Notes: generated from the sequence alone by a model not told the origin. A DNA stretch of 64,000 nt from Patescibacteria group bacterium (GCA_023380635.1 JAMCRP010000002.1:42458-106457); one strand, 5' to 3'; counted from the stretch's first letter, positions 10,447 through 37,813 are shown. Program-made: numbers and translations.

Positions 10447-10454
10447 TTCGATTT

Positions 10455-11027: not shown

Positions 11028-11084
11028 TAAAATGAGCGTAGCGAATTTTACTAACCGAACGAAAGTGAGGTGTTTAAAATTCAC

Positions 11085-11110: not shown

Positions 11111-11115
11111 GATTT

Positions 11116-11869: not shown

Positions 11870-11970
11870 GTTACGATAGTAACAATAGTTACGTTAGAGA
11901 AGAAGTTACGAAAGAAATTGTCTTAAAACTTATTGTCACTAATGTAACTGTTGTAACTTTGAGTTTGCCT

Positions 11971-13185: not shown

Positions 13186-13236
13186 GGTATCCTGATTTTA
13201 TCACAGTTGCTATAATGTTCCTAATCGACCCTCTCA

Positions 13237-13345
13237 ATTTGAAATTTACAATTTACAATTTGAAATAAATATCAAATTTGAATTTTTTGAATTTGAAGAA
13301 TTGAAATTTCATTGAAAATTTCAAAGTTCAAATTTCAAATTTTGT
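13237..13345. repeat. A/T-rich 8-bp periodic 'AATTT(G/C)AA' array immediately upstream of mreB
   Basis: caatttgaaatttacaatttacaatttgaaat...gaatttgaagaattgaaatttcattgaaaatttcaaagttcaaatttcaaatttt. Confidence 0.8.
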
Positions 13346-13347
13346 GT

Positions 13348-14481: not shown

Positions 14482-14554
14482 CCCATAAGAATCTTCAGTC
14501 GCATTAGAAATTCTAGTTCTATAAACGGCATATTCACGCACGACAAAATGTACT

Positions 14555-14592
14555 CATTTTTGAAAATTTCGAATTTCAAATTTCAAATTGCG
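14555..14592. repeat. A/T-rich 8-bp periodic 'AATTT(G/C)AA' array downstream of mreB
   Basis: gaaaatttcgaatttcaaatttcaaattgcg. Confidence 0.7.
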
Positions 14593-21227: not shown

Positions 21228-24200
21228 TTGACAAATCTGTTCAAATCTCCGCATACTGATTATGCTGTGAAAAAAAGCACTGACGCCGGACTTTTAAAAA
21301 TTGGTGACGCTGCAAAGTTTCTTAATGTTTCTATCCAGACTCTTCGTCGTTGGGATGAGAGCGGAAAACTGAAACCGGTGGTGACTCCTGGAGGAACAAG
21401 ATTCTACGAAAAACAGGCCTTAAAAAATATCCGGGTCGGAAACGGAGTAAGGGAAACAGATGGTACGGGAGAAATGAAGTCGGAGCAGCAAGTAACAAAA
21501 AAGACGGGGAAATTCAGTAAGCGAGGACTGGTGAAGATTGGGACGGCAGCAAAACTACTGGGGATTTCAATTCCTACCTTGCGACGCTGGGACGAGATGG
21601 GCAAACTCCGGGCTGTGGTCAGCCCTGGCGGGACGCGTCTGTATTCTAAAGATTCCCTGGCGGCAATCAACCCGGCTTTATCCGAATATAAAATTCTCAA
21701 GAGCGAGGAACCCGAGATTAAACCAGCCAAACAATTTATTAAGGAAGTCGTATCTGAGGTTCTCCACCAGCAAAAGGCGGTTTTGCAGCTGCCGCCACCG
21801 GTTAATCCCATTCAAACTATCTCAGAGTGGAGCCAAGAGCCGGTACACTATCGGGCAGAAACGGAAGCAGGGAGAATAGCCGGATACTTCCAAAAACCGC
21901 CCCCGGAAGATACAAGAAACAAGATACAAGAAACAAGAGAAACACCGAATACAAGAAAGAAGCGAAGCTGGAAAAGCTTTGCTTACACTCTTCCGGCAGT
22001 TTTAGCTACTATCCTTCTGCTGTTAACTACCGGCCTGAATATATATATTACTTCCTATCAGAAGAAAGTGGCTTCTGACCGGAATTTGCAGGCGGTCTTG
22101 GCCGAAAGCAGCAGCCAAAACTTTTTAGACATCCGGGCGGATACCGATGTTTCCGGAAGACTGACCGTGTGGGGGAAAGATGTCTTAACAGAAGCGACTT
22201 TAGCTTCTTCTTCCCCCTACCTTAGCAACTTAAACCAAAGCCTCAGCACGACGGCCACTCCTACTTTTGCCAACCTTACCTTAACCGCCGGCAAGATTGT
22301 CCTGGAAGACAAAACGCAAACTTTAAAAAACAAATCGCTTTCGGGATCGGATAACACTTTTTCTAATATTCCCAACTCCGCTTTGGCTAACTCCAAAGTC
22401 ACCGTGACGGCCGGCACCAACCTGACCGGGGGCGGGGATGTCGTCTTAGGTGACAGCACCACGATTGGTTTGAAGGACAACATTAGCGTTACTTCGGTCA
22501 CCAGTTCCGCTCTAACAGTTAATGGAGACGCGGCTATTACCGGAAATTTGAATGTGGGCGGAGGCTTGCAATTTTCTAGCCTGGCGGTGACGGGGACAAG
22601 CGGAACAGCTCCGGTGGCTTCCATTTCCGGTAAAACGTCCTTTGCCGCCGTGGTGGTGGATAATTCCGGCTCAGGTGACTTGTTCACCGCTTCCACTGCC
22701 GGCCAGCCCCGCTTTACGGTTAATTCCAACGGCGACCTTTTACCCGGCATAACCAGTCATCAAAGTATCGGTTCTCCCACTCAGGTCTGGGACACCATCT
22801 ATGCCAATAATCTTTCCGGCACAAACTGGTCAGGAAACATCATCGGTACTCAATATGGCGGCACGGGTCAAGATTGGCACCTGACGGCTCAGGGCAATGT
22901 GCCTTATTTTTCAGCTTCCGGAACCATGAACACCCTGGCGCCCGGCACCAACCATCAGGTTTTTGTGACCCAGGGGGTTGGCGCCAATCCCAAATGGGAA
23001 GACCTGGTCAATTTGTTGACGCCGGGGACGGACATCACTCTGGGGGGAACTAATGTGGTCACTATTAATGACGCTTCCACTTTACAATCGGTTACCGGTC
23101 GGGGGGCGGCAACAACTAATCCCATCACTTTGAATTTAACCGGAGGTAATGCCTATTTTGGTTCCGGTAATGCTTCAGCCCTGGTCGATCTAAGTTCTAC
23201 CTCCAAGGGGTTCTTGACGCCACGCATGACTCAGGCCCAACGGGATGCAATTAGCACTCCGGCACCGGGGTTGCTAATCTATAATACTGATACAAACCAA
23301 TTCAATGTGTATAACAGTTCTACTTGGGGGGCTATTGCTGGAGCGGGGGCGGCGTACTGGGGAGATAATATCGGCGCGTTATATCCGCTATACCTCAACA
23401 GTGATTTATTAATCGGATCTGACGCCACGGCTTCCGCTTTAATCCGGCTTGAGGGCACCACGGGCTATATAACGGCTAACCGGATCAACGGCAACAAAAT
23501 CGCGACCGGATCAGGGAATGTGGCGGTTTCGGCGACTTTGCCTTTGGCCGTCGATACCAACGGCAACATGACTTTGGCCTATACCTCAAACCTGAAAGTG
23601 ACCTCAAGCCAACTGGATACGGCGCAAAACATTGGCCCGAGCGCCTCGCCGCAATTCGTCAGTCTGACGCTCGGGTCAGGAACTACCGGCACTCTCCAAA
23701 CAGCAGCGCTGACTGGCAGTCGCACTTGGACATTGCCAGACAACACCGGAGAAATATGCACGACCTATGGCAATTGTATCGGGGGCGTCGGGGGATCCGT
23801 TGGCGGTTCCGGTACCAATACCAAAATTGCCATGTTCACTCCTGACGGAACCCATATCGGCGATTCCCACATTACCGACACCGGAACTCAGATCCAGTTT
23901 TTTAATACTAGCAATTACATTGATTCCAGCGGCAATTTCTATTTAAACGGTTCATTATTTGCCTCCGGTAACGAGGCGGGTTTTTGGCAGCGGCAGAGTG
24001 GAGTGTTAGCTCCTAAGAATATCACCGATTCTTTGATAATTGGTGGTAACGCGACTGGATCCGGACAGCTACAGGTTTATGGTTTGAACTCGCAAATGCC
24101 GGTGGCGTCAATTTCCGCCCAGACACCCTGGGCAGCCCTGGTCGTGGATAATGCGACCGGTGACCTTTTCACAGCCAGTTCATCAGGAATGACCCGTTTC

Positions 24201-27200
24201 ACGGTTGGTAATACCGGTAATTTGACGGCCGGGACCTATAACACTGCCACTATCACCGGGGGGTCGCTCTCGGCCACGGCCGTAAATGGCGTGGCCACGG
24301 CCAACATTTTAACCACCGGCACCACTTTTGCCGGGGATGTTGGCGGCAGTTACAACAATTTGGCTATCGGGACGGGGAAGGTAACTAACCCCATGCTTTC
24401 CGGGCCGGTGGACACAACCCACGGAGGAACGGGCAATGACTGGCATCTGACGGCTCAGGGCAATGTGCCTTATTTCTCCGCGGCCGGAACGATGGGTCTC
24501 CTGGCGCCCGGGACAGCGTCGCAGGTTTTAACTACCGGTGGGGGCGGCGCGGATCCAGCTTGGACTAACATGGCCAGTTTGGTTACCGGAGCTGGTAACA
24601 TCACTGTCACAGGAACACAAACTCTATCAATTAACACGGTTAACAACCCCACTTTTAGCACTTCGGTCACGACACCGCTTTTGACAAACTCCGGTAATTT
24701 ATTAATTAACCCTACCGGTAATGTTGGGATCGGAACCACCAGCCCGGCGGCTTTGCTTTCGGTGGGGACAAATTCTGATTTACGGGTAAACGGCACCGGG
24801 GACATTGTCGCCCGGACTTACAACGGCAATATTATTGCCACCGGTTCCGGGACTTTAACTTTGGGATCCGCCTCGTTAAACATTGGTACCGGCGGAACAT
24901 TGAATACGGGCGCTTACGCCGATATTTCTTTGTACGCGCCCTTGGCCAGCCCGACTTTTACCGGCACCGTGACGATTCCCACTTCATTTGTTTTGGGCGC
25001 CACGACGGTCACCACGACCGGGACCCAACTGAACTACTTAAACGCTGCCACGGGAACCACGGGAAACACCAACTCCAACCTGGTTTTTTCCAACGGGCCG
25101 ACCTTAACTTCGCCGGCCTTTTCTACCATCGTCAATGTCGGCACTTTAACCCTGCCAACTACTTCTGATACGCTGGTTGGCCGGGCCACGACCGATACTT
25201 TTACCAACAAAACTTTTGACACGGCCGGGACCGGGAATATCCTGAGGATTAACGGCACCCAAGTCTCCGCCGTCACCGGCACGGGTTCCGTGGTTTTAGC
25301 TTCGGCGCCCACCATTAGCAACCCGATTATTACCAATATTAACCCCGGAGCCGATTTCACTTTAACCCAAAACAGCGTGACTCCTTTTATTTCCTATAAT
25401 TCCGGGGCGTTGGCCAACACTTTGGTCTTAAGCGCCGGCAGTGTGGGCATCGGGGTAACGAATCCGGGGGCTAAATTGGATGTGGCCGGCGCCGCTTCGA
25501 TTTCCGGCATTCTTACCTTAAACAACGGAGTGACCACCCAAATTAACGCTACCAATGACCGCAGTCTCGATTTGGGTTTTGCCAACACCGGCCGGGTCAA
25601 CTTTTTAACCACGAGCAGCTATATTGATGCTAACGGCAATTTTTCAACCAACGGCCAAATCCAGGTGGGAAGTTTTGCCAGTGCCCCGACGGCCCTCGGA
25701 GCCGGGAGCATGTATTACAACTCCACCGAAAACCGTCTTTACGCTTATAACGGCACGAACTGGAGCCCGCTGGGGGAGCAAAGCACGGTGGTGGTCACCA
25801 ATAATTCCGGCACCACTTTAAATCCAAAAGACCTGGTCATTTTTGACTCTTCGGCAAACAATGCGGTCACGACAACCACGACTGCCTACAAAAAGGGTGT
25901 GGTTTATGGTGTGGTGGTTGATGCCTCATGCGCCAGCGGGGCGACCAACTGTAAAGTCCAGATTTCCGGCAAGGTAGATGTCTCGGTCACAAATTCTAAC
26001 GCCGCCAAGGGGGATTATGTTTTCACCTCGACAACCGCGGCCAAAGGCGTCACTTCGGCCAAACTTTTTGACGGGTTGATCGGGATTGTGACCGATAACA
26101 CCAATGCCGGATCAGGCTATGTGACGATCATTTTCCAGCCGCAGGCCCAGGTGTTGGCCGGAGTGGTGATGGACAAAATCAGCAGACATAATGACTATAA
26201 AATTTATTCCAATATCTACACTCCCATCAATGAGGGTTCGGTTTTTAGTCCCAATTTAACCGCCCGGGGAATTTCTTTTGACAACTTTTTAGACCAGACC
26301 AAGGTTGATGCTGCTTTAACAACGGTCGGATCAACCATGTCTGCCCAGATCCAGTCACCAACAGCCCAGACCAGTGCGCCGTTTAGAATGGGGCTAACGG
26401 GCGGGCAAACCTACAATACCACTAACACCGATAACGCCGGTAACGCCTATTTAGGCTCCAACACGGTCAACAAAGTCTTTTATTACGACCGGACCCGCGA
26501 TTCCATCCCGCAAGTTCAAGTAGAGTTAGGAATTGACCCGAACTGGTACAACGGTGTCACTTTGTCCGTCGCTTCTACTTCAGCCCAATTCTCGCAAGCG
26601 GATACGATCACTAAACCCAATCCCAATCTTTCCACGGCTTACAACGGAAGTTTGGTCAAGGTTTCCGGAACCTATCCGACCCAGGCGGCGACCAGAACCA
26701 TCTATTTGACGATTACCTCGCCGACGCAATTCACCTGGTCCGACGGCGCCGTCGGCGCTAACAATGTCTCCATTAATCCCGGTGTTTCTCAGGCTTTGGG
26801 CACGACGGGTGTTTCCGTGACTTTCACCAATGTTAAATATAACCCCGGTGATGTCTTCCGGATTGCCTCCTGGGTCGTCGAGCCGGCCTCATCAACCCGC
26901 GGTTCCAAAGCCCAGTTCCCGGAAAGAAGCTATGTGATCGGGACAGCTTCCTCTGTCGATATTATTGACGCGGATACGAATAAACTTTGGATGCGCTTTA
27001 CCATAAATGCGACATCCTGGGCCGTCACTACCATGCTTATTGACGCTTCGTCAAGCGTGACTGCCCTGAATGGAACAATCTATTCTTCCCAAGGAGCCAG
27101 CGGTCTTTTGAAAATAGTTTTTGACCGAGATACCGGTTTTGGTTTTACAACCGACTGGACCAATTACGGCGGAACATTTAGAGGCGGTATCGCCCAGAGA

Positions 27201-30200
27201 AACACCCAGAATGGTTACGCTCAAAATGTCCCTCTAAACATTGTCAATAACACTGTTAACGATATCTCTGCCGCCGTCATTCCCAACCAGCCGACCCAAA
27301 CCGTGACGACAAGCGGGTGGGGATATATGTACCTTAATGCTGCGGGCTCGAATTACGAAGTCGTAAATCTTCCGTATAAATTTAACGATATACCGAAAGT
27401 GGTTATATCCGCATCAGCCGAACGGGCCACAGCACCAACTAATTACGGTGATTGTTCGTGGGGTATATCAACCAACTTTGTTGCCAACACCTATTCGGCT
27501 ACCACCAGTAACTTCGGGGCAACAATAGCTACTCCGGGCAGCGGAACCACCACCGGCTATATTTGTTACACCTGGACCGCCACCGGCGTTGTTTCCCCGA
27601 GACAATATGTGGCGGTGGGAACTAATCAAGGCGTTACCGTGATTAATGAGACGGATCAAAGTGGTGTGAACTATAGTACAGTAAGTTCTGGGGACCATAA
27701 TGTAGGAAGTGTTTTCTTAACCTCTAATGACAACCTTTACTTTAGTTATCCCTGGTCTTACCCAACAGACGTAAAAGTTGCTGTCCAATATGGCGTTGCG
27801 GGGGTTACTTCAAATGTCGCCTGGGACAGTTGGAGCGGAAATTATGCGTCAATTGGAAATAGCTGGAGCAATAAAGGTCCAACGCCATTACAGAGCTCAA
27901 CAAACTATCAGATTTTCGTTACTTCTGGAACTTCAACCATTGATGGAAAGAGCAATACAATTTATGTATCCGGTTCCAATGGTTTGACGGTTATCCAAGA
28001 AAAACAAGCCGGACGTTTTGGTACTGCTGAATCCTATGTTCCGTCAGATGAAAATAATGGCTCTGTTAAATACTACACCAAAGACTACATTTCCGAAGAA
28101 ATGGTCGGGGACATTCGGGGCATGTGGCCGCTTAATGGAACGCTTTCTGATGCTTCAGTTAAAGGCAATACGCTAACAGATGGTGGCATAGCTTTTGGAA
28201 CTGGTGTTCGGGGCCAAGGAGCGGTCATTTCCGGATTGAGCTTTCTTTACTGCACGGATGCCAGTTGCGGCGGGACGAGTAAGTTGGATTCTGGAGGTAC
28301 TGCCTGGAGTTTTGGAGCCTGGTTTAAGACTACTTCGACAGGAGGGACAATTATTTCTAAATATAACGGCGGAGTTAGCGGCGCATATTTTTTAGCAGTT
28401 GACGGTAGCGGAAAACTCTCCGGAGATATCGAACAAAGTCCATATACTTTCACCGGAAACAAAATTGTGAATGACGGTAATTGGCATTTTGGTGTCGTGA
28501 CATACGACGGAGTGTCGGCAAAGATTTACGCTGATGGTCAACTTGACAGTTTGGTCGCCATGACAGGAAACATTCCTGACACTACTGCTAACTTTGCGAT
28601 TGGCGCTCGATATACCGGCGGCAGCGTTTCTAACATTTTACTCGGTTCTATTGATGAACCCTTTGTTTCCGCTACAGCTTTAACGGCCAACCAGATTAAA
28701 CACATGTACGAAGTCGGCGCCCGGGCGCTTCAATCACATAGTGCTTCTTTGGGTGGCGGGGCGGCAGACGCTAATCAAAAGCTAGGGACAAATGTGGCTT
28801 CCGTGTCAGCCGCAGCGGTTGATTACAACAACCAGTTTATGTATGTTGGGGCTAATGACTCGACCAATGGCGGCGTTTCTAAAATTGATTTAAACAGCGA
28901 CACAAATATCCGGACTATCCAAACCGCCAACACTCCGGTCGGCGGCACGGTCTTGCCGGCCAAAACCGTCTCTTCTCTTGCTGCCGGGTACAATTTGGAA
29001 GTTGTGGGCACGGGAACCGGGGCTATCGGCATGGCTCCGGATGACAACGCCAACAACCTGAGTGGGACTCTTTACAGCAAAACTTTAACGACTCCGGAAA
29101 GTTTCTCCCAAGCCTATATCTGGAGCCAACAGGTGACGGACGCGGCCGACGCAGCCAACACGGTCACCGTCTGGGCATCTAATGACGGCGGGTCAAACTA
29201 TTACCAATGCAACCAAACGAATACAGATTCTACCCAGACGCCAACGGAATATGAGTATTTTTGCCAGTTTAATGCCGTTGGAAGTTCTTTAAAGATTAAG
29301 GAGGTTTTTGCCAGGGGTTCGACGAAAACGAACACTTATGTCACCAGGTATGGCGTGGCTTGGATTGATAGTAGTAACGCTATCGGGTCTAATCCTTTGG
29401 GTAACGGAATGTATACCAATAACGCGACCGTGGCGGACAGTTCGTACCTTGAGGTGGCCCACAACCAAAACACCGCCGACGCCGTGGCTAATGCCTGGAT
29501 TTCTTCGGAGTCAAAGTGGAAACAGTTGGATGCCACCTATAAACCGGTCGCCGCTTATGACGGACTTTCCGGCGTCTTAAGTGAGTACCATGATCTAGCC
29601 GCAAACTACAAAACCGGGGATTTAGTTTCCACCCCTTCGGGAATACTTTTTGATACTTTTAAGGACATTACCAAAACCGCTTCGGCCGCCAGCACCTTGT
29701 CTTTGGATTTTGGCAAAAACCGGGTAGGCCTAATGGGCGGACAAACTTTTAACACCACCAATACCGACTCTGACGGCAACGCATTGTTGGGCTCCAACAC
29801 GGTTAACAAGGTTTTCTATTATGACCGGATAAACAAAGATTCCTCGCCCCAAGTGCAGGTGGAACTGGGCGTTGATCCGAACTGGTATAACGGGGTAACC
29901 TTGTCAGTTGCCACCACCTCTGCCCAGATGAGCCAGTCGGAAACAACTGTTCCTGCCGGCAAGAATCCCAACCTTTCAACCACCTATAACGGCTCTCTGG
30001 TTAAAGTCACCGGGACTTACGCTACGACAGCCGCGGCCAGGCCAATTTGGATTACGATTTCTGACAACTCTTCGTTTGTTTGGACAGACTATAACGGCAA
30101 CGGCGGGACAGCCAGCCTTCAGCAGGGTGTCACGCAGGCTTTGGGATCAACCGGCGTTTCCGTGACCTTCACGGGGACAAAATATAACATCGGCGATGTC

Positions 30201-33200
30201 TTTAAGATTGCCTCCTGGTTCGTCGAAAAACCTTCCGCCACCAGAGGCTCAAAACAGCAATTCCCAGAGAGAAGTTATGTCGTTGCTACCGCCGCCTCAG
30301 TAGACATTATTGACGCCGATACCAACAAGTTATGGATGAGATTTACTGGGGCAGACGGCAATATTATCCATTTCCCAACAGGATTTACATATAATGTCCC
30401 ATCTGTCACAGCGCTTAACGGAACTTTGTATGCAGGCATACAACGGACGAATGGAGCTTGGGGTAACTTAACTAGTGTCTACTTCTCACGGGATTCTTCT
30501 TCTGGAATAACTAGCGGCAGTACTTTCCCCTATCCTGGCGTGATTTCTCAGAGAAACAGCGCACTCGGATATCCGCTAGCCTTGAGCACTGTAACCATAG
30601 CCAACAGTTACGTTAACGATGTCTCCGCCGCGGTCATTCCCAACCAGCCGACCCAGACGGTAACTGTGAGCGGGTGGGGGTATATCCAAGGAAACGGGTC
30701 CACGCCTTATGTATCCGAAACAGTCAATTTCCCTTATAAATTCAACAATCTTCCCGTTGTAAATATTAATTTTTCCGGAGGCACCAGCACTACCGCTCCG
30801 ACAAAATTATCGGATTGTGCTGCAAACTGGCGAGTCGAAGCACATGCTGAAAGTATAGGAAATAATAGCTTTACGGCTAAGACAGCACTCACGGAAACCG
30901 GCGACGGCAATACCAGCGCTACCGGTTATTACTGTTACACCTGGACCGCGACAGGGCAAGTTTCGCCGAGACAATATGTAGGGGTAGCAACTAACGGCGG
31001 AGCGACTTTAATTAACGAGACGGACCAAAGTGCGGTTAATTACGGCGACACGGCTCAGTTTAGCCGGATCGCCTTAACCTCCAAGAGCCATATGTATATT
31101 GCCAGAGATAGTAATGTGGGAGAAATAAGAGTCTTTAATAATGCCGCCGGATTGGGGGCTGGTTTTAGCTCAGATATGCTGCTTTTTCCCACAAGTAGTT
31201 GCACAAACCAGCCTTGTTATTTGGCTGAAGCCGCCGGCGGTAATGGTCATGGTCCAACCAGCTTGTTTGTTACTGACGGAACTTCAACGGTAAATGGGAG
31301 TGCCGATACAGTTTATGTCGGTACTGCTGTTGGACTCTCGGTATTTCAATTAAATAATACGAACGCTAATTTAGGTGACGGCCAGGGGGAAATCCAAAGT
31401 TCTTCAGTAAAATATTACACCAAAGACTACATTTCCGAAGAAATGGTCGGGGACATTCGGGGCATGTGGCCGTTTAATGGCAGCGGGGCCATAACTCAAA
31501 ACAGCACAACCTTTACTGATGCCTCAGTAAAGGCCGATCCTTTGGTTTCTAAAGGCACCGGGGCGGCATACGCCAGCGGTGTTCGGGGGACTGGTGTTTC
31601 GCTTAACGGCACTAATGATTATTTCTGCCCGAATGGAGGCAGCGGATCGACCTGTACGGATGTTTCTTCTTTAAAGATTACCGGAAACAGCATATCCGTC
31701 GGAGCCTGGATGAAATCCTCGGCAACTTGCTCTGTCTTTCAGGATGTCATAAGCAAGGAAGATAATACTACTGGAAATTCCTGGCGGATTACAATGGACA
31801 GTGGTAACCACGCAAGATTTGATACTACCTTTGCGCCGGTATATGGTGTGGCCGCAACGGGAACAACAAATATTTGTGACGGCAAGTGGCATTACCTTGT
31901 GGGAGTCTATAACAATGGTGACACACAAAAAATCTATGTTGACGGCAGACTGGAAGGGACCGGGGCCGCACAATCAGCGACAGTCAGAGATGTGACGGCT
32001 CCGGTAGCAGTTGGTGCTGAATTTAATAACGGTACGCCAGGGAATTATTTTAAGGGGACAATCGACGAACCGTTTGTGACAGCCACGACTCTTTCGGCCA
32101 ACCAGATTAAGCATATGTATGAAGTCGGCGCCCGGGCGCTTCAGAGCCATTCCGCCTCTTTAGGCGGCGGGGCGGCGGACAAAAACCAGCAACTGGCCGG
32201 AGCTGCCGGTAACCCCACAAATTTAGTCAAAGCAGTAGGGGTGGATTACAACAACCAATACATGTATGTTTCCAACTCCGAAGCCGGGCTTAACCAAAAC
32301 AACGGCGGAGTTTCCAAGATCGATCTTAATTCTGATACCAATGTTTACACTTATAAAAACGGTTCCACCCCGGCCCAGTTGGATAGTGAGATATCCTCTC
32401 TGGCAGTTGGTTACAACCTTGAAGCCATGTCTTCGACAGCTTCCGGCGTCCTCAACCCCGGTATTGACGCTTTTGCCAGTGCTACTTCCGGTTCCTTCTT
32501 CTCAAATACTTATGTTTTACCAAAGCCCATTGCCTCGGCCGTCATCTGGACCAGCGCTTACAAAGACACTGCCGATTCCGGTTCGACGCAGACGATTAAA
32601 GCCAGTGTTGACGGCGGGAGTACATACGCCACCTGTAATTTGCTTAGTACTGACTACAATCCGGCCACCCCTGAACGGGCCTATGGTTGCGAATTTGCCG
32701 CTTCCGGTCAAAACTTGAAAGTCGAGTTTGATTTAGCCCGAACCAGCGTCAAGTCCAACAATTATGTTTCACAATACGGGATTACCTGGCTGGGACAAAA
32801 CGGGTTCAGAGTGGAACAGACCAATAACAACACAGTCAGACTGTATAACTATTCCGGCGAATCGGCTAATGTCCGGTTGGATGTCATTACCGGCGGCCTG
32901 GGGAGAAATGCCGGGACGATTTCTCTGGCCCCCAGCGCGGCAGATGTTGATGCCCAGAATAATTCCAATTCCCTGTGGATAAACAAAACGGGGGCGGGAG
33001 GGAATTTATTAAAACTTCAGGTCAGCGGGGCTGACAAACTCACCTTGGATGCTAACGGCCTGATGACCTTGACTGGGAACTTTGTTCCGGGAGCGGACAA
33101 CACCTATGATTTGGGCGCCTCGTCATCAGCCAGGTTTAGAAACTTGTATCTTGGACCCGGCTCGCTTCATATTCAGTCAAAATCCACAGACACGGGTTAC

Positions 33201-35321
33201 CCGGCGCTGGGGCTGGATTATGCCCTAGGCATTAACCCTGCCGGGAGCTTGGTGACCAGTCTGAACGGGACCTCGAACGCCTTGATGGCTATTACCCAGG
33301 ATGGTAAAGTCGGCATCGGGACAACTGCGCCCACGGCTCTTCTTCAGGTTTTTGGTAACGGCACCACTCAGGTGGCCAGTGTCTCGGCTTCTACCGGGAA
33401 AGCGGCTCTTTTGGTTGACAACACCGTTGGCGACCTCTTTACCGCGTCTTCTTCCGGAATGTCCCGGTTTGTGATTACGCAAAGCGGCAACGTCGGCATC
33501 GGGACAACGGGGCCAGGAGATAAACTCCATGTCGCAGGGGGCAATATTATAATTGAAGGATCTGGAGCTGGTGCAAGTCCTCGTGGTATTAAAACCCGTT
33601 ACACATCAAGTGACTCTTATTCTGGTAGTTTAGGTTGGAATGGTCTACAGCTTGGCAATAATGGACCAAATTATATTGTCGCTGGTAATTCAGCAACAGG
33701 TGGAAGTCTGAATTTCATTGTAAATAATTCTAATAGCTTGGGGACTGGAACAGATTATGGGACTGCTAATGGAACAAATGCAATGACAATATTAAGCAGT
33801 GGTAATGTCGGCATCGGGACAACGGGGCCAAATAAATTACTTGATGTATATAAATCTCAAAGCAGTGTCACCGACGAGTCGCAAGCGGCAGCGGCTTTCG
33901 GTGTCACTACGACGGGAGGTATCTATGGATATATCACTCCTAATCAGACTGGAAAAACAGTCACATTCGCTGGAGTTCGAGGCGGTCAGGCTAACGACGT
34001 ATCGCTGCTCTTTAACCCAGCTGGCGGCAACGTCGGCATCGGGACGACGGGACCTTTGGGCAAGTTAGATGTCGGCAACCAAATGTATGTTCAGTCAAAC
34101 GGAACCATCGAGAGTCCAGGCAGCAAGAACACGACTAACGGAATGATTGAAACATACTATAATGCTGGTGACAGATATGGTTTAGGTCAACTTTCCAATG
34201 GAGTAACAGCTTTGTACACATCCGATGCTTACAGCCCCAGCTCAATACAGTTTGGAAGAATAGACAGCAGCAACAATTTCATCTCTCTGATGGATATTAC
34301 CCATGGTGGCAATGTCGGCATCGGGACGACGAGTCCGGGCTATCTTTTAACCGTTAACTCCAGCACCCCAGGCTGCAACGGGTGTACCGCCTGGACAAAC
34401 TACTCTGATATCCGCCTAAAGGAAAACATTGCTTCCGTCTCCGGGGGAATTTTAGACAAAATTTTGCAACTAAACCCGGTGACTTTTAACTACAACGACA
34501 CCTACTATACCCAAACGGGTTATTCCCGCCCTGATGGCCAAACACCAACTTACACTGGCTTTATTGCCCAGCAGTTGCAAACGATTTTTCCGGAAATGGT
34601 TTCCACCTCCAGTAATGGTTATCTTGACACCAACCTTTCCAACTTGCAGATCTATCTGGTTAAAGGTATGCAGGAACAACAGGGAGAAATTGCTTCCCAG
34701 TCAGCCCAAATTGCCACCATGTCGGCCACACTTTCGGCCTGGAACGACCTTCTGGGGACCCCCTCAGCCTCTTTAGCCGAGTCTGTCGCCCGCCTAGACG
34801 GGTTATCAGCCGATATTTCCTCTTTAATGGCCGATAACCTCCAGATTAAATCCGATATCCAGCTTCTTAAAGAGCAAATGGCCACAGTTTCGGCTAACTT
34901 GGCTCAGGTTTCTTCCCAAACCGCTTCCAATTCCGCTTCTCTGGCTTCCTTAAGTCCCTTAAGTAACTTAAGCATCTTAAGTGATCTGGAAGTCTCGACG
35001 GTTTCGGCTTCCTTTGCCAACTTTTCTGACACTCTCAAGGTCGTGGGCAAGACCCAGCTGGCTGATACTAACATCGGGGGCAGCTTGACCGTGGGGTTGC
35101 TGCACTTTGACGATTTGAAAGCGGAGATATCCAGCTTAACCGGCACGGTTACCATTAACAGCAATTTGCAGGTGGCCGGAGACGCCACGGTGTCGGGAAC
35201 GCTCAAAACCGCCACGGCAGAAACTGACGGAATCAGTCTTAAAGATGAGGTGACGGGGGATTACTATTGTATTCGGATGCACAGTGGCGAGATTGCCAAA
35301 ACCCCCGGGAAATGCCAGTAG
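21228..35321 (+). CDS. giant membrane-anchored fibre-like protein (4697 aa): 2x MerR-type HTH, single TM, tail-fibre-like repeats, 2x ConA/LamG-like lectin domains, C-terminal peptidase-S74 intramolecular-chaperone domain
   Basis: Two N-terminal copies of LLKIGDAAKFLNVSIQTLRRWDESGKLKPVVTPGGTRFYEKQAL (MerR/HTH_17 pattern IGExAKxxGVSxxTLRxYExxGLLxPxRxxxGYRxY). TM helix identical to giant gene 1. Seven GNVGIGTT(S/G)P-type motifs. LamG/ConA-like jelly-roll domains at ~28.12-28.73 kb and ~31.46-32.15 kb (AWSFGAWFKTT...NWHFGVVTYDG...KIYADGQL). S74 domain at ~34.40-34.69 kb (SDIRLKENI...LNPVTFNYN...TGFIAQQLQTIFPEMV...YLDTNLSNLQIYLVKGMQEQQ). The start is ambiguous: TTG at 21228 or GTG at 21267. Confidence 0.85.
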   Translation: MTNLFKSPHTDYAVKKSTDAGLLKIGDAAKFLNVSIQTLRRWDESGKLKPVVTPGGTRFYEKQALKNIRVGNGVRETDGTGEMKSEQQVTKKTGKFSKRGLVKIGTAAKLLGISIPTLRRWDEMGKLRAVVSPGGTRLYSKDSLAAINPALSEYKILKSEEPEIKPAKQFIKEVVSEVLHQQKAVLQLPPPVNPIQTISEWSQEPVHYRAETEAGRIAGYFQKPPPEDTRNKIQETRETPNTRKKRSWKSFAYTLPAVLATILLLLTTGLNIYITSYQKKVASDRNLQAVLAESSSQNFLDIRADTDVSGRLTVWGKDVLTEATLASSSPYLSNLNQSLSTTATPTFANLTLTAGKIVLEDKTQTLKNKSLSGSDNTFSNIPNSALANSKVTVTAGTNLTGGGDVVLGDSTTIGLKDNISVTSVTSSALTVNGDAAITGNLNVGGGLQFSSLAVTGTSGTAPVASISGKTSFAAVVVDNSGSGDLFTASTAGQPRFTVNSNGDLLPGITSHQSIGSPTQVWDTIYANNLSGTNWSGNIIGTQYGGTGQDWHLTAQGNVPYFSASGTMNTLAPGTNHQVFVTQGVGANPKWEDLVNLLTPGTDITLGGTNVVTINDASTLQSVTGRGAATTNPITLNLTGGNAYFGSGNASALVDLSSTSKGFLTPRMTQAQRDAISTPAPGLLIYNTDTNQFNVYNSSTWGAIAGAGAAYWGDNIGALYPLYLNSDLLIGSDATASALIRLEGTTGYITANRINGNKIATGSGNVAVSATLPLAVDTNGNMTLAYTSNLKVTSSQLDTAQNIGPSASPQFVSLTLGSGTTGTLQTAALTGSRTWTLPDNTGEICTTYGNCIGGVGGSVGGSGTNTKIAMFTPDGTHIGDSHITDTGTQIQFFNTSNYIDSSGNFYLNGSLFASGNEAGFWQRQSGVLAPKNITDSLIIGGNATGSGQLQVYGLNSQMPVASISAQTPWAALVVDNATGDLFTASSSGMTRFTVGNTGNLTAGTYNTATITGGSLSATAVNGVATANILTTGTTFAGDVGGSYNNLAIGTGKVTNPMLSGPVDTTHGGTGNDWHLTAQGNVPYFSAAGTMGLLAPGTASQVLTTGGGGADPAWTNMASLVTGAGNITVTGTQTLSINTVNNPTFSTSVTTPLLTNSGNLLINPTGNVGIGTTSPAALLSVGTNSDLRVNGTGDIVARTYNGNIIATGSGTLTLGSASLNIGTGGTLNTGAYADISLYAPLASPTFTGTVTIPTSFVLGATTVTTTGTQLNYLNAATGTTGNTNSNLVFSNGPTLTSPAFSTIVNVGTLTLPTTSDTLVGRATTDTFTNKTFDTAGTGNILRINGTQVSAVTGTGSVVLASAPTISNPIITNINPGADFTLTQNSVTPFISYNSGALANTLVLSAGSVGIGVTNPGAKLDVAGAASISGILTLNNGVTTQINATNDRSLDLGFANTGRVNFLTTSSYIDANGNFSTNGQIQVGSFASAPTALGAGSMYYNSTENRLYAYNGTNWSPLGEQSTVVVTNNSGTTLNPKDLVIFDSSANNAVTTTTTAYKKGVVYGVVVDASCASGATNCKVQISGKVDVSVTNSNAAKGDYVFTSTTAAKGVTSAKLFDGLIGIVTDNTNAGSGYVTIIFQPQAQVLAGVVMDKISRHNDYKIYSNIYTPINEGSVFSPNLTARGISFDNFLDQTKVDAALTTVGSTMSAQIQSPTAQTSAPFRMGLTGGQTYNTTNTDNAGNAYLGSNTVNKVFYYDRTRDSIPQVQVELGIDPNWYNGVTLSVASTSAQFSQADTITKPNPNLSTAYNGSLVKVSGTYPTQAATRTIYLTITSPTQFTWSDGAVGANNVSINPGVSQALGTTGVSVTFTNVKYNPGDVFRIASWVVEPASSTRGSKAQFPERSYVIGTASSVDIIDADTNKLWMRFTINATSWAVTTMLIDASSSVTALNGTIYSSQGASGLLKIVFDRDTGFGFTTDWTNYGGTFRGGIAQRNTQNGYAQNVPLNIVNNTVNDISAAVIPNQPTQTVTTSGWGYMYLNAAGSNYEVVNLPYKFNDIPKVVISASAERATAPTNYGDCSWGISTNFVANTYSATTSNFGATIATPGSGTTTGYICYTWTATGVVSPRQYVAVGTNQGVTVINETDQSGVNYSTVSSGDHNVGSVFLTSNDNLYFSYPWSYPTDVKVAVQYGVAGVTSNVAWDSWSGNYASIGNSWSNKGPTPLQSSTNYQIFVTSGTSTIDGKSNTIYVSGSNGLTVIQEKQAGRFGTAESYVPSDENNGSVKYYTKDYISEEMVGDIRGMWPLNGTLSDASVKGNTLTDGGIAFGTGVRGQGAVISGLSFLYCTDASCGGTSKLDSGGTAWSFGAWFKTTSTGGTIISKYNGGVSGAYFLAVDGSGKLSGDIEQSPYTFTGNKIVNDGNWHFGVVTYDGVSAKIYADGQLDSLVAMTGNIPDTTANFAIGARYTGGSVSNILLGSIDEPFVSATALTANQIKHMYEVGARALQSHSASLGGGAADANQKLGTNVASVSAAAVDYNNQFMYVGANDSTNGGVSKIDLNSDTNIRTIQTANTPVGGTVLPAKTVSSLAAGYNLEVVGTGTGAIGMAPDDNANNLSGTLYSKTLTTPESFSQAYIWSQQVTDAADAANTVTVWASNDGGSNYYQCNQTNTDSTQTPTEYEYFCQFNAVGSSLKIKEVFARGSTKTNTYVTRYGVAWIDSSNAIGSNPLGNGMYTNNATVADSSYLEVAHNQNTADAVANAWISSESKWKQLDATYKPVAAYDGLSGVLSEYHDLAANYKTGDLVSTPSGILFDTFKDITKTASAASTLSLDFGKNRVGLMGGQTFNTTNTDSDGNALLGSNTVNKVFYYDRINKDSSPQVQVELGVDPNWYNGVTLSVATTSAQMSQSETTVPAGKNPNLSTTYNGSLVKVTGTYATTAAARPIWITISDNSSFVWTDYNGNGGTASLQQGVTQALGSTGVSVTFTGTKYNIGDVFKIASWFVEKPSATRGSKQQFPERSYVVATAASVDIIDADTNKLWMRFTGADGNIIHFPTGFTYNVPSVTALNGTLYAGIQRTNGAWGNLTSVYFSRDSSSGITSGSTFPYPGVISQRNSALGYPLALSTVTIANSYVNDVSAAVIPNQPTQTVTVSGWGYIQGNGSTPYVSETVNFPYKFNNLPVVNINFSGGTSTTAPTKLSDCAANWRVEAHAESIGNNSFTAKTALTETGDGNTSATGYYCYTWTATGQVSPRQYVGVATNGGATLINETDQSAVNYGDTAQFSRIALTSKSHMYIARDSNVGEIRVFNNAAGLGAGFSSDMLLFPTSSCTNQPCYLAEAAGGNGHGPTSLFVTDGTSTVNGSADTVYVGTAVGLSVFQLNNTNANLGDGQGEIQSSSVKYYTKDYISEEMVGDIRGMWPFNGSGAITQNSTTFTDASVKADPLVSKGTGAAYASGVRGTGVSLNGTNDYFCPNGGSGSTCTDVSSLKITGNSISVGAWMKSSATCSVFQDVISKEDNTTGNSWRITMDSGNHARFDTTFAPVYGVAATGTTNICDGKWHYLVGVYNNGDTQKIYVDGRLEGTGAAQSATVRDVTAPVAVGAEFNNGTPGNYFKGTIDEPFVTATTLSANQIKHMYEVGARALQSHSASLGGGAADKNQQLAGAAGNPTNLVKAVGVDYNNQYMYVSNSEAGLNQNNGGVSKIDLNSDTNVYTYKNGSTPAQLDSEISSLAVGYNLEAMSSTASGVLNPGIDAFASATSGSFFSNTYVLPKPIASAVIWTSAYKDTADSGSTQTIKASVDGGSTYATCNLLSTDYNPATPERAYGCEFAASGQNLKVEFDLARTSVKSNNYVSQYGITWLGQNGFRVEQTNNNTVRLYNYSGESANVRLDVITGGLGRNAGTISLAPSAADVDAQNNSNSLWINKTGAGGNLLKLQVSGADKLTLDANGLMTLTGNFVPGADNTYDLGASSSARFRNLYLGPGSLHIQSKSTDTGYPALGLDYALGINPAGSLVTSLNGTSNALMAITQDGKVGIGTTAPTALLQVFGNGTTQVASVSASTGKAALLVDNTVGDLFTASSSGMSRFVITQSGNVGIGTTGPGDKLHVAGGNIIIEGSGAGASPRGIKTRYTSSDSYSGSLGWNGLQLGNNGPNYIVAGNSATGGSLNFIVNNSNSLGTGTDYGTANGTNAMTILSSGNVGIGTTGPNKLLDVYKSQSSVTDESQAAAAFGVTTTGGIYGYITPNQTGKTVTFAGVRGGQANDVSLLFNPAGGNVGIGTTGPLGKLDVGNQMYVQSNGTIESPGSKNTTNGMIETYYNAGDRYGLGQLSNGVTALYTSDAYSPSSIQFGRIDSSNNFISLMDITHGGNVGIGTTSPGYLLTVNSSTPGCNGCTAWTNYSDIRLKENIASVSGGILDKILQLNPVTFNYNDTYYTQTGYSRPDGQTPTYTGFIAQQLQTIFPEMVSTSSNGYLDTNLSNLQIYLVKGMQEQQGEIASQSAQIATMSATLSAWNDLLGTPSASLAESVARLDGLSADISSLMADNLQIKSDIQLLKEQMATVSANLAQVSSQTASNSASLASLSPLSNLSILSDLEVSTVSASFANFSDTLKVVGKTQLADTNIGGSLTVGLLHFDDLKAEISSLTGTVTINSNLQVAGDATVSGTLKTATAETDGISLKDEVTGDYYCIRMHSGEIAKTPGKCQ
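26270..32790. repeat. diverged internal tandem duplication (~3.1-3.4 kb unit x2) within giant gene 2
   Basis: Copy A ~26270-29390 and copy B ~29640-32790 are collinear at protein level (G(I/L)(S/L)FD-x-F-x-D-x-TK ... NTVNKVFYYDR ... QVQVELG(I/V)DPNWYNGVTLSVA ... SSVKYYTKDYISEEMVGDIRGMWP ... HMYEVGARALQSHSASLGGGAAD ... VDYNNQ-x-MYV ... GGVSKIDLNSDTN). There is a 56-nt exact DNA match at 28075-28130 versus 31417-31472. Confidence 0.85.
34938..34985. repeat. in-frame tandem 9-bp 'nnnCTTAAG' array inside giant gene 2
   Basis: tcccttaag taacttaag catcttaag tgatctgga encoding SLSPLSNLSILSDLE; the same unit family as the intergenic arrays at 9.7, 10.4, 11.1 and 38.8 kb. Confidence 0.7.
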
Positions 35322-37210: not shown

Positions 37211-37813
37211 GTGGCAAAAGCTGGTTTCGAATATCTTCTTGCCTACAAAATCACGGTGCCGATCTACGATTACACTGTGGCTTTCTGCAATTGTTACCCG
37301 CCGTTAGCTCCTAATCATCCTAATTTCTCCAATTTTTCCTATCCTCGTCTCTCTTCAACCCGAACCTATGACCAAATGATTCAGTCGGCACGGTCGGGGA
37401 TGACTAATTTGGCTGAAGGTCATCAGCAGCAAAGCCTTGAAGGCTATATTAAACTTTCAGGAGTTAACAGAGCCTCATTAGAAGAACTTTTAAAAGATTA
37501 TTTAGCTTTTGCCAGACAGAACCATCTAGAGGTCTGGCCAAAAGAGAGATCAAGAAGAGAAATTCGAGAAATTGGAGAAATATGGGGAATCTTAACAAGA
37601 ACTTCGACACTGCCGGACAACCCAAATTTTCCGCCGCTTCCAAACGACCCAACCAAAGCGGCGAATTTTATGATTACTCTGATTAATCAAGCCAATTACC
37701 TGCAGGATCGTTTGAATCTTGCTTTAGAAGACAAATTTGTTAAGGAAGGCGGTTTTCGGGAGAATCTTTTCAAAAAACGGATGGCTTACCGCAATAAAAA
37801 AAGTCCCGCTTAA
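37211..37813 (+). CDS. four-helix-bundle protein (Avd-like family), long form; paralogue of 10455..11027
   Basis: MIQSARSGMTNLAEGHQQQSLEGYIKLSGVNRASLEELLKDYLAF and C-terminal EGGFRENLFKKRMAYRNKK; collinear with the 10455 gene (EGGYSENLYRRREEFRRN). Confidence 0.7.
   Translation: MAKAGFEYLLAYKITVPIYDYTVAFCNCYPPLAPNHPNFSNFSYPRLSSTRTYDQMIQSARSGMTNLAEGHQQQSLEGYIKLSGVNRASLEELLKDYLAFARQNHLEVWPKERSRREIREIGEIWGILTRTSTLPDNPNFPPLPNDPTKAANFMITLINQANYLQDRLNLALEDKFVKEGGFRENLFKKRMAYRNKKSPA

What the first reader, a model, noticed from the sequence alone, without database searches (positions are those of the whole stretch)
28120..32160. Two ConA/LamG-like lectin-fold domains embedded in a 3-kb internal tandem duplication of the giant gene
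Segments ~28.12-28.73 kb and ~31.46-32.15 kb each encode a ~200-aa unit (AWSFGAWFKTTSTGGTIISK ... GNWHFGVVTYDGVSAKIYADGQLD ... EPFV-x-A-x-LTANQIKHMYEVGARAL) with the hallmark pattern of LamG/ConA-like jelly-roll carbohydrate-binding domains. They sit inside a diverged tandem duplication (copy A ~26.27-29.39 kb, copy B ~29.64-32.79 kb) that retains patches of exact DNA identity (56 nt at 28075-28130 and 31417-31472). The duplication-then-divergence pattern suggests diversifying ligand specificity of an adhesin.
Basis: seen in the sequence. Interest (0 to 1): 0.6.

Follow-up and report, generated by a model that had tools for sequence, protein, structure and literature searches.

The report
Duplicated lectin module in giant fibre
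A 4,697-residue surface-fibre gene of an ultra-small (Patescibacteria) bacterium carries two old tandem copies of a ~1,050-residue propeller-plus-lectin module, each with a LamG domain. This is a real but fairly ordinary case of a giant lectin-bearing adhesin, and the LamG cores look like swappable specificity cassettes.

Summary
ORF 21228-35321 (4,697 aa, no stops) contains two collinear copies of a ~1,050-aa module: A at 26259-29366 and B at 29631-32798. They share 51% aa identity. Each copy has a Laminin_G_3 domain (E 2e-18 and 2e-20), and a 57-nt exact repeat sits at the 5' edge of both LamG domains.

The gene encodes an N-terminally anchored fibre: two MerR-type HTH domains, one TM helix, a phage-tail-fibre-like C-terminus and a Peptidase_S74 chaperone. 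The host is a Patescibacteria MAG.

The module occurs once per gene in about 45-50 database proteins and 25 genomes. Only this window (2 copies) and one other genome (3 or more) have tandem copies.

The duplication is old. Synonymous sites are saturated, so dN/dS cannot be computed.

Across the family the LamG core is the least conserved part, and its identity is uncorrelated with scaffold identity. In one close pair, dS is saturated only in the LamG core. This favours cassette replacement over simple in-place divergence.

Adhesin function is inferred, not shown. Interest is moderate.

The parts
21228..35321 (+). Giant ORF, 4,697 aa. The listed start is TTG; the true start codon was not verified.
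21291..21671 (+). Two N-terminal MerR/excisionase-type HTH domains (aa 22-70 and about 100-148), predicted to be cytoplasmic.
   Evidence: Pfam MerR E 1.6e-22, MerR_1 and HTH_17. NCBIfam BldC and excisionase-type hits.
21987..22055 (+). The single hydrophobic transmembrane segment (aa ~254-276). It is preceded by RKKRSWK, which implies an N-in anchor.
   Evidence: Kyte-Doolittle maximum. All 24 Cys lie after it, in 12 close pairs.
26259..29366 (+). Module copy A (aa 1678-2713). It comprises an N-terminal beta domain, a WD40-like beta-propeller with H-lectin-like and LamG inserts, and a C-terminal beta sandwich.
29367..29630 (+). 88-aa spacer between the copies, containing a degenerate tail of unit A. 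The repeat period is about 1,125 aa.
29631..32798 (+). Module copy B (aa 2802-3857), collinear with A.
   Evidence: AlphaFold model pLDDT 74.6, pTM 0.77, with the same order of secondary-structure elements.
28131..28727 (+). LamG/ConA-like domain of copy A. The Pfam-matched core is 28296-28700. There are 173 aa between the GMWP and IDEPFV junction motifs.
31473..32111 (+). LamG/ConA-like domain of copy B. The Pfam-matched core is 31638-32111. There are 196 aa between the junction motifs, and it has two more Cys pairs than A.
28074..28130 (+). 57-nt exact repeat, copy A. It encodes YTKDYISEEMVGDIRGMWP, the family-invariant junction just before the LamG insert.
31416..31472 (+). 57-nt exact repeat, copy B.
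27276..27608 (+). H-type-lectin-like insert of copy A, with a conserved Cys pair at 2076/2113.
   Evidence: Pfam H_lectin E 0.72 only for copy A; 8 of 14 family copies hit at E<=1. Homologue P0020 passes the Pfam cutoff.
30630..30974 (+). H-type-lectin-like insert of copy B.
   Evidence: Pfam H_lectin E 0.003, 17.9 bits, below the 24-bit cutoff.
33276..34339 (+). GNVGIGTT-type repeats. This is the phage-tail-fibre-like distal shaft.
   Evidence: the repeat finder families D1 and D3. PHROG tail-fibre families: phrog_9942 E 4e-30, phrog_1980 and phrog_18345.
34404..34601 (+). Peptidase_S74 intramolecular chaperone domain, carrying SDIRLK (Ser4393, Lys4398).
   Evidence: Pfam E 1.7e-14, 54.3 bits against a cutoff of 22. 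Motif position. The Ser/Lys dyad with this spacing is described in PMC3742443.

Best explanation
The region is an old tandem duplication of a ~1,050-aa ligand-binding module inside the gene for a giant cell-surface fibre of a Patescibacteria (CPR) bacterium.

Protein architecture (shown at the domain level):
- Two cytoplasmic MerR-type HTH domains.
- One N-in transmembrane anchor.
- A long Thr/Gly/Ser-rich stalk.
- Module A and module B.
- A phage-tail-fibre-like shaft.
- A Peptidase_S74 intramolecular chaperone with an intact Ser/Lys dyad.
- A C-terminal tail.

By analogy with S74-bearing tail fibres, the S74 domain probably drives trimerisation of the extracellular part and then cuts itself off. 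This step is inferred.

Module architecture: each module is a WD40-like beta-propeller scaffold. It carries two inserted lectin-type domains, an H-type-lectin-like domain and a LamG/ConA-like jelly roll, and it has N- and C-terminal beta domains.

Proposed function (inferred): the conserved propeller presents the variable lectin inserts to glycans or glycoproteins on a partner or host cell. Two modules with unlike LamG cores (33% identity; 173 against 196 aa) would give the fibre two binding specificities and more valency.

Evolution (partly shown):
- The duplication is ancient.
- Across the family the LamG core behaves as a cassette whose relatedness is decoupled from the scaffold.
- The likely mechanism is recombination at the two strongly conserved junction motifs.
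- The 57-nt identical tract at the 5' junction is most simply a short gene-conversion tract between A and B.
For: Duplication and LamG domains.

H-lectin insert: homologue P0020 passes the Pfam cutoff at the homologous site, and 8 of 14 copies hit weakly.

Surface-fibre architecture: Pfam MerR and S74. One TM segment, paired extracellular Cys, and the SDIRLK motif. Tail-fibre PHROGs on the C-terminal 840 aa. The S74 mechanism is described in PMC3742443.

Organism: the window's LeuRS is 100% identical to a 'Patescibacteria group bacterium' protein. Housekeeping genes flank the giant gene. All full-module homologues are in Patescibacteria MAGs, or in MAGs carrying other or uninformative labels.

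Family architecture: there is one module per gene in 49 database proteins. These often carry an N-terminal Phage_int_SAM-like domain and a C-terminal S74. Tandem copies occur only here and in L001.

Age of the duplication: pS is 0.76, which is saturated. The scaffold tree gives (A, L002) 87% and (A, L002, L020) 83% bootstrap.

Cassette behaviour:
- The LamG core is the least conserved segment family-wide.
- LamG identity is uncorrelated with scaffold identity over 210 module pairs (Spearman 0.13).
- L015 and L016 share 79% scaffold identity but only 27% LamG-core identity, with sharp block boundaries at the junction motifs.
- In that pair dS is about 0.8-1.0 in the flanks but saturated in the LamG core. 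The fraction of identical codons among identical residues is 0.37 in the core against 0.66 in the flanks (Fisher p 4e-4), and dN/dS is 0.17.

Gene conversion.

Literature: lectin/ConA-like surface proteins are already proposed as attachment factors in Patescibacteria and DPANN (PMC12911398; PMC7443923). Lectin-like envelope proteins are essential for epibiotic growth of a Saccharibacterium (PMC10633639).
Against: - No ligand, localisation, trimerisation or cleavage has been shown; all are inferred from domain homology.
- H-lectin assignment in the two window copies is below the Pfam threshold.
- The most conserved residues of the family are charged residues in the N-terminal domain and first blades (R214, D237, R314, D335 in module numbering). 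This would also fit a catalytic or conserved-ligand site rather than a passive scaffold.
- The LamG-core tree is poorly supported (at most 74% bootstrap). The incongruence therefore rests mainly on the loss of well-supported scaffold clades and on the single L015/L016 pair.
- Alignment error in regions of about 30% identity inflates pS.
- A and B share derived residues at the 3' junction (90% aa identity against 80% or less to the others). This could instead mean a lineage-specific duplication with fast divergence of B.
Confidence: 0.6

Rival explanations
1. Simple duplicate-then-diverge. The module duplicated within this lineage. The two LamG cores then diverged in place under positive (diversifying) selection for new ligand specificity, without recombination from outside.
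For: A and B are mutual best matches in the N-terminal domain (72%), the first blades (64%) and the 3' junction (90%). The LamG core is the most diverged part. A weak scaffold clade (A, B, L002, L020) appears at 56% bootstrap. The single-module relative L039 runs from an A-like module directly into the segment that follows B in the window, consistent with B being an added copy.
Against: Synonymous sites between A and B are saturated everywhere except the 57-nt tract, so no dN/dS above 1 can be shown. The scaffold of A groups with L002 and L020 to the exclusion of B at 83-87% bootstrap. The C-terminal part of A is 65-68% identical to L002, L020 and L001_1 but only 44% identical to B. In the one close pair available, the LamG block has saturated dS and dN/dS of 0.17. 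That pattern indicates replacement, not in-place positive selection.
Confidence: 0.2
2. The module is an enzyme rather than, or as well as, an adhesin. In this reading it is a glycan-degrading depolymerase: the propeller is catalytic and LamG and H-lectin act as carbohydrate-binding modules, as in sialidases, GH43 arabinanases and phage tailspikes.
For: The best whole-chain Foldseek matches are propeller-plus-lectin glycosidases: GH43 AbnA (5ho2) and T. cruzi trans-sialidase. The family-invariant residues are charged or aromatic and lie in the N-terminal domain and first blades: D198, W205, R214, E222, D237, D239, R314, D335. This region is more conserved than the lectin inserts. The C-terminus is tail-fibre/tailspike-like.
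Confidence: 0.15
3. The protein is a structural envelope component, such as an S-layer-like coat or a spacer. The lectin-fold domains would then bind the cell's own glycans and would not recognise a partner cell.
For: A WecG/TagA-family glycosyltransferase sits immediately upstream, between two paralogous fibre genes. LamG folds are generic protein- or glycan-binding scaffolds.
Against: Hypervariable, mosaic lectin inserts on a conserved scaffold are typical of molecules that face a changing external ligand, not a self ligand. The family is rare and patchy, with about 25 of 185,579 species genomes, which is unlike a core envelope component.
Confidence: 0.08
4. The gene is a prophage or phage-derived tail-fibre gene, or the duplication is an assembly artefact.
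For: The C-terminal 840 aa hit phage tail-fibre PHROGs and S74. Three viral contigs share a short piece of the module. The repeat lies in a metagenome-assembled genome.
Against: The neighbours are housekeeping genes (LeuRS, ArgRS, MreB, L1, L10, NusG, SOD), and none of the flanking ORFs scanned with Pfam matched a phage family. The protein has an N-terminal HTH and a membrane anchor. The module itself hits no PHROG. The copies are only 54% identical in nucleotides, with one continuous frame, which an assembler cannot create by collapse or expansion.
Confidence: 0.03

Closest known systems
Giant LamG/ConA-like surface proteins of ultra-small symbionts. Examples are the SPEARE proteins of Ca. 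Nanohaloarchaeum antarcticus, the LamG/PKD secreted proteins of Ca. Nanohalobium, and the 'concanavalin' lectins noted in Patescibacteria genomes.
   Same: These are very large, lineage-specific extracellular proteins. They carry LamG/ConA-like domains, occur in reduced-genome episymbionts, and are proposed to mediate host attachment (PMC7443923; PMC12911398).
   Different: None of the serine-protease or restriction-endonuclease domains that give SPEARE its name was found here. The LamG domain here is nested in a beta-propeller module together with an H-lectin-like insert. The fibre ends in a phage-type S74 chaperone and begins with cytoplasmic HTH domains.
Phage tail fibres and tailspikes with a C-terminal Peptidase_S74 intramolecular chaperone, for example K1F endosialidase.
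   Same: The S74 domain has the Ser/Lys dyad motif. The shaft is tail-fibre-like with GNVGIGT-type repeats. The receptor-binding parts show a mosaic, cassette-like pattern of variation.
   Different: This protein is chromosomal and cellular. It is anchored by an N-terminal TM helix rather than attached to a baseplate. The propeller/lectin module has no PHROG match.
Sialidases and trans-sialidases, and GH43 AbnA (beta-propeller plus ConA-like lectin or CBM domain).
   Same: Both combine a propeller with a ConA-like jelly roll followed by a helix. Foldseek gives E of about 1e-9 to 1e-10.
   Different: The propeller here resembles 7-bladed WD40 propellers. There is no sequence match to any glycosidase family. 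The lectin domain is inserted within the propeller rather than appended to it.
MYRF-type membrane-bound transcription factors (DNA-binding domain plus S74 ICA domain plus TM).
   Same: Both combine a DNA-binding-type domain, a single TM segment and an S74 domain in one polypeptide (PMC3742443).
   Different: The topology differs. Here the HTH domains and S74 lie on opposite sides of the membrane, about 4,100 residues apart. S74 cleavage therefore cannot release the HTH domains. This is a resemblance in parts list only.
Multi-LamG giant proteins. In a library of 1.84e9 representatives, 23,289 match the module profile at E<=1e-10, most of the listed ones through several LamG-region stretches (up to 25 per protein).
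   Same: They show repeated LamG_3 domains in very large extracellular proteins.
   Different: In those proteins the LamG domain itself is the repeat. Here the repeat is a ~1,050-aa composite module. Only about 45-50 proteins carry the full module, and they carry it once.

Membership tests
Laminin_G_3 / ConA-like lectin-glucanase superfamily (Pfam PF13385) | Profile HMM score above Pfam's gathering threshold | tested here: met
   Copy A scores 67.2 bits and copy B 74.3 bits against a cutoff of 27.6.
Laminin_G_3 / ConA-like lectin-glucanase superfamily (Pfam PF13385) | Two-sheet jelly-roll beta-sandwich fold | tested here: met
   The model of module A matches 5hon_A (TM 0.72, 21% id), 6er3_A CBM40 (TM 0.72), BoNT Hc and neurexin LNS. 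It also matches phage LamG proteins at TM about 0.7.
Laminin_G_3 / ConA-like lectin-glucanase superfamily (Pfam PF13385) | Carbohydrate or protein ligand binding on the concave face or loop rim, often Ca2+-dependent | not testable with these tools
   There is no ligand or metal-site analysis. The loops are the hypervariable part.
H-type lectin (Pfam PF09458) | Profile HMM score above the gathering threshold (24 bits) | tested here: inconclusive
   Copy B scores 17.9 bits (E 0.003) and copy A 10.5 bits (E 0.72). The homologous insert of P0020 scores 28.6 bits, which passes. Of 14 family copies, 8 hit at E<=1. A profile search against PDB sequences found nothing.
Peptidase_S74 intramolecular chaperone (Pfam PF13884) | Profile HMM above threshold, plus the catalytic Ser and the Lys five residues downstream | tested here: met
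   The score is 54.3 bits against a cutoff of 22. S4393-D-I-R-L-K4398 is present. The dyad spacing matches MYRF S578/K583 (PMC3742443).
Peptidase_S74 intramolecular chaperone (Pfam PF13884) | Trimerisation-dependent autocleavage | not testable with these tools
   Requires biochemistry.
WD40-like beta-propeller (structural class) | Toroidal arrangement of about seven four-stranded blades | tested here: met
Diversity-generating retroelement (DGR) target gene | A nearby reverse transcriptase and a template repeat matching the variable region with adenine-specific mismatches | tested here: not met
   No extra copy of any part of 26259-32792 exists elsewhere in the window. No RT family was hit among the ORFs scanned. 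Only a 23S_rRNA_IVP-like small ORF lies nearby, and it scores below threshold.
SPEARE proteins (Nanohaloarchaeota) | Serine protease, adhesion and restriction-endonuclease domains in one giant protein | tested here: not met
   Pfam and NCBIfam scans of the whole protein show no endonuclease, and no protease other than S74. It is an analogue, not a member.
Phage tail fibre / receptor-binding protein | Encoded in a phage or prophage structural module and attached to a virion baseplate | tested here: not met
   Only the C-terminal 840 aa hit tail-fibre PHROGs. The flanks are housekeeping genes. The protein has an N-terminal membrane anchor.

The most novel reading that the evidence does not exclude
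The LamG cores, and probably the H-lectin inserts, may be exchangeable host-specificity cassettes in a phage-tail-fibre-like adhesin of CPR bacteria. In this reading they are swapped by homologous recombination at two junction motifs that are nearly invariant in protein sequence (SVKYYTKDYISEEMVGDIRGMWP and IDEPFV...QIK.MY.VG.RAL). Tandem modules such as A and B would then give one fibre two specificities and an in-gene donor for conversion. The 57-nt identical tract would be the footprint of such an event. A further, more speculative layer concerns the cytoplasmic N-terminal DNA-binding-type domains, which are MerR HTH here and integrase SAM-like domains in homologues. They might couple fibre state to DNA or gene regulation.
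Probability: 0.2. Interest if true: 0.7.

Novelty: new variant of a known kind. Interest (0 to 1): 0.4.

Why it matters
How ultra-small episymbiotic bacteria recognise their hosts is largely unknown. This locus gives a concrete, testable candidate: a conserved propeller scaffold presenting two hypervariable lectin-type inserts on a probably trimeric, tail-fibre-like surface fibre.

The locus carries two unlike LamG cores in one protein. Family-wide evidence suggests these cores are exchanged like phage host-range cassettes. If that holds, LamG-core typing could predict partner specificity in uncultured Patescibacteria. Domain swaps could then test that prediction in the genetically tractable Saccharibacteria.

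As a bare observation, two LamG domains in an internal repeat of a giant adhesin-like gene is ordinary.

Tried and rejected
pS is 0.76, which is saturated in nearly every 40-codon window. Only the 57-nt tract window has a low pS, 0.41.
- DGR-type diversification: rejected. There is no template-like repeat and no RT hit.
- RNA structure in the 57-nt tract: rejected. z-scores are -0.2 and -0.04.
- Cross-species nucleotide constraint on the tract: only a modest excess of synonymous identity after correcting for amino-acid composition (O/E 1.21, the highest in the module). It is driven by a few Lys, Glu and Thr codons, and the module pairs are not independent. It is not enough to claim a nucleotide-level element.
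- Sequence search of module A, and of an H-lectin-insert profile, against PDB: nothing useful.
- PHROGs on module A: no hit.
- Independent assembly of the giant gene through exact-protein look-ups (the GalT-like neighbour and the giant ORF): not on record. The first LeuRS look-up failed, apparently because I left out the stop codon. It succeeded through P0191, but that Logan contig ends before the giant gene.
- Metagenome scan for close relatives with the A-B junction, intended to give unsaturated dS: it found only one partial, single-module locus.
- A first representative-library job failed because the profile exceeded 1,200 positions. It was rerun with a three-sequence alignment.
- Literature searches for S74 domains in Patescibacteria found nothing. 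The giant-gene preprint does not treat CPR LamG proteins.

Full report
**1.

The window has one very long ORF, 21228-35321 on the + strand, 4,697 codons with no stop. Chunked self-BLASTP gives a single long off-diagonal line. It joins aa 1678-2713 to aa 2802-3855, at an offset of 1115-1145 aa, with 40-61% identity and E down to 4e-91. An 88-aa spacer lies between the copies.

At the DNA level, the repeat finder and blastn recover the same register in patches of 66-95% identity. They find no third copy anywhere in the window.

The exact DNA repeat is 57 nt, 28074-28130 = 31416-31472. Among 489 aligned codons with the same degenerate amino acid, only 43% are the same codon. All 16 in the tract are identical. 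The local probability is about 2e-6, a permutation test gives p = 1.5e-4, and the next-longest exact run is 23 nt.

**2. What the repeated unit is**

The LamG domain is only about one fifth of the unit. I modelled both copies with AlphaFold2 on alignments of 26-30 family members. Copy A gave pLDDT 71.2 and pTM 0.75. Copy B gave pLDDT 74.6 and pTM 0.77. The two models have the same order of secondary-structure elements.

- GH43 AbnA domain 4 (5hon_A, TM 0.72).
- CBM40 (6er3_A, TM 0.72).
- The lectin domain of trans-sialidase, BoNT Hc and neurexin LNS.
- Many phage LamG structural proteins.

From the order of the structural elements I infer the following layout in module numbering:
- An N-terminal beta domain (~70-220).
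- Propeller blades (~220-940).
- An insert at ~345-445.
- The LamG insert at ~615-805, followed by a long helix.
- A C-terminal beta sandwich (~943-1035).

The first insert is H-type-lectin-like. Pfam H_lectin is sub-threshold in copy B (17.9 bits) and very weak in copy A (10.5 bits). It passes the threshold at the homologous site of homologue P0020 (28.6 bits), and 8 of 14 family copies hit it. I call this probable, not established.

**3. The gene and the organism**

The whole protein has the following parts:
- Two N-terminal MerR/excisionase-type HTH domains (Pfam E 1.6e-22; NCBIfam).
- A single hydrophobic segment at aa ~254-276, preceded by basic residues.
- All 24 cysteines downstream of that segment, in 12 close pairs. 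This fits an N-in anchor with a ~4,400-residue extracellular part.
- A C-terminal 840 aa that match phage tail-fibre PHROGs (phrog_9942, E 4e-30).
- A Peptidase_S74 intramolecular chaperone domain (54.3 bits) with the Ser-x4-Lys dyad motif (S4393, K4398). This is the arrangement that mediates trimerisation-dependent self-cleavage in endosialidases and MYRF (PMC3742443).

The flanking genes are housekeeping genes: LeuRS, ComEC, ArgRS, MreB, L1, L10, NusG and SOD. The LeuRS is 100% identical to a protein of a 'Patescibacteria group bacterium'.

This is therefore a chromosomal gene of a CPR bacterium, not a prophage gene.

**4. The family**

A word-indexed search of 5.8e9 proteins and an exhaustive HMMER search of 1.84e9 cluster representatives find only about 45-50 proteins with the full module. 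By contrast, 23,289 representatives match the profile at E<=1e-10. Among the hits listed that lack the full module, most match through several LamG-region stretches, up to 25 per protein.

A scan of 185,579 species genomes finds the full module in about 25. They are Patescibacteria of the Microgenomates group, Dojkabacteria and Saccharibacteria, plus some MAGs with other or uninformative labels.

Typical members are 2,500-3,300 aa. Those with an annotated N-terminus carry a Phage_int_SAM-like domain there, they have one module, and several have S74. None of 49 database proteins with the module's N-terminal domain has two modules. Among the genomic loci, only L001 has tandem copies, with at least three. 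Tandem duplication of the whole module is thus a rare state of a rare family.

**5. Age and mode of the duplication**

Over 996 aligned codons, A and B are 51% identical in protein and 54% in DNA. pS is 0.76, which is saturated, and dN is 0.49.

On scaffold columns (642 sites without the lectin inserts), copy A groups with single-copy modules of two other genomes: (A, L002) at 87% and (A, L002, L020) at 83% bootstrap. B lies outside these groups.

Segment by segment the picture is mosaic:
- A and B are mutual best matches in the N-terminal domain, the first blades and the 3' LamG junction (90% aa).
- The C-terminal part of A is 65-68% identical to L002, L020 and L001_1, but only 44% identical to B.
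- The H-lectin insert of B is closest to that of L002.

A Hainich groundwater contig (L039) has a single A-like module. It is followed by the segment that follows B in the window.

I conclude that the duplication is old. It was later overlaid by exchange or conversion of segments, and the 57-nt tract is the most recent such event.

**6. The LamG core as a cassette**

The A-against-B identity profile tracks the family-wide conservation profile. The LamG core is the least conserved stretch, with mean pairwise identity of 0.16-0.39. The junction motifs on either side are among the most conserved, at 0.65-0.68.

Over 210 pairs of modules, LamG-core identity is uncorrelated with scaffold identity (Spearman 0.13).

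The clearest case is the pair L015 and L016, two MAGs labelled Saccharibacteria:
- Scaffold identity is 79% and LamG-core identity is 27%.
- The whole-gene profile shows a background of 80-95% identity, broken by sharply bounded blocks of 20-45%. These blocks coincide with the H-lectin insert, some blades and the LamG core (module-level coordinates), plus a stalk segment and the region after the module.
- In the flanks dS is about 0.8-1.0. In the LamG core it is saturated.
- The fraction of identical codons among identical residues is 0.37 in the core against 0.66 in the flanks (Fisher p 4e-4). dN/dS in the core is 0.17.

Higher dS inside the block than beside it is what replacement by a divergent allele predicts. 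It is not what in-place positive selection predicts.

There are caveats. This is one pair, alignment is uncertain at about 30% identity, and the LamG tree is weakly supported.

**7. Function**

Nothing here shows binding. The inference rests on three points:
- Two lectin-type folds sit on a conserved scaffold.
- The protein has an extracellular, probably trimeric, tail-fibre-like architecture.
- The variation is of the kind seen in receptor-binding proteins.

This fits published proposals that ConA/LamG-like surface proteins mediate attachment in Patescibacteria and DPANN (PMC12911398; PMC7443923). It also fits Tn-seq evidence that lectin-like envelope proteins are essential for epibiotic growth of a Saccharibacterium (PMC10633639).

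The main functional rival is an enzymatic, depolymerase-like module. The best whole-chain Foldseek matches are propeller-plus-lectin glycosidases. The family-invariant residues are charged and lie in the first blades. Against this, no glycosidase family is hit, and the propeller looks like a seven-bladed WD40 type.

**8. Verdict**

The simple duplicate-then-diverge history is probably incomplete.

The locus is a new variant within a known kind, the giant lectin-bearing surface proteins of ultra-small symbionts. It has three less usual features:
- A nested propeller/H-lectin/LamG module.
- Cassette-like LamG cores.
- A frame consisting of an S74 tail-fibre C-terminus and an N-terminal HTH anchor.

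Interest is moderate (0.4).

Noticed in passing
window 15552-20261 (+), with 20303-21097 between it and the giant gene: The upstream 1,569-aa ORF is a paralogue of the giant gene at both ends. Its aa 147-436 match giant aa 151-441 at 74% identity, including an identical TM segment. Its aa 1357-1569 match the post-S74 tail at 77%. It lacks the LamG modules and has different N-terminal HTH repeats. A WecG/TagA-family glycosyltransferase gene sits between the two fibre genes.
   Followed up: partly
window 21291-21671; homologues P0014, P0019, P0020 and L001 6065-7300: These giant extracellular fibres carry cytoplasmic N-terminal DNA-binding-type domains. In the window they are two MerR/excisionase HTH domains. 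In most homologues they are one or two Phage_int_SAM-like domains without an integrase catalytic domain. Their role is unexplained.
   Followed up: partly
L001 (JAJYKS010000007.1) 10001-18991: This is the only other locus with tandem modules, at least three, and the gene runs off the contig. A 531-nt block in the N-terminal domain is 90-93% identical between copies, while the rest is about 70-80% identical or undetectable. This indicates strong local concerted evolution.
   Followed up: partly
P0010 aa ~722-1043; P0013 N-terminal region: Two homologues carry inteins (Pfam Intein_splicing). In P0010 the intein sits inside the module, right after VNDVS..., at the site where other members carry the H-lectin-like insert.
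   Followed up: no
L025 (CP070801.1, Ca. Aenigmatarchaeota archaeon) 9536-10747; P0009: A DPANN archaeal genome encodes the pre-module domain (56% identity) and the module's N-terminal domain (37% identity). This suggests transfer of fibre parts between CPR bacteria and DPANN archaea, or a binning error.
   Followed up: no
window 37211-37813 (+); L001 5402-5902; L026 3206-3736: A small ORF with a weak 23S_rRNA_IVP hit (four-helix-bundle family) lies near the giant gene here. It has homologues next to the giant gene in L001 (35% identity, immediately upstream) and in L026 (58% identity). No reverse transcriptase was found nearby.
   Followed up: partly
window 22536-23069 vs 24021-24635 (giant aa 437-614 vs 932-1136); 33276-34339: The stalk contains further internal repeats. 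One is a ~180-aa unit duplicated at 45% identity, part of which recurs near aa 4040-4094. The others are GNVGIGTT-type repeats before the S74 domain.
   Followed up: no
L036-L038 (IMG/VR contigs of 95-195 kb): Three viral contigs encode proteins that match only module residues ~183-300 (the GDVFRIASW...VDIIDADT... segment, which is the end of the N-terminal domain and the first blade) at 33-40% identity. This part of the scaffold is therefore shared with phage proteins.
   Followed up: no
Genome-contig loci L003, L004, L009, L014, L017 and others: Several MAG records that hold this Patescibacteria-type fibre gene are titled 'uncultured Gammaproteobacteria' or 'Pseudomonadales'. These are probably mislabelled TPA bins.
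   Followed up: no
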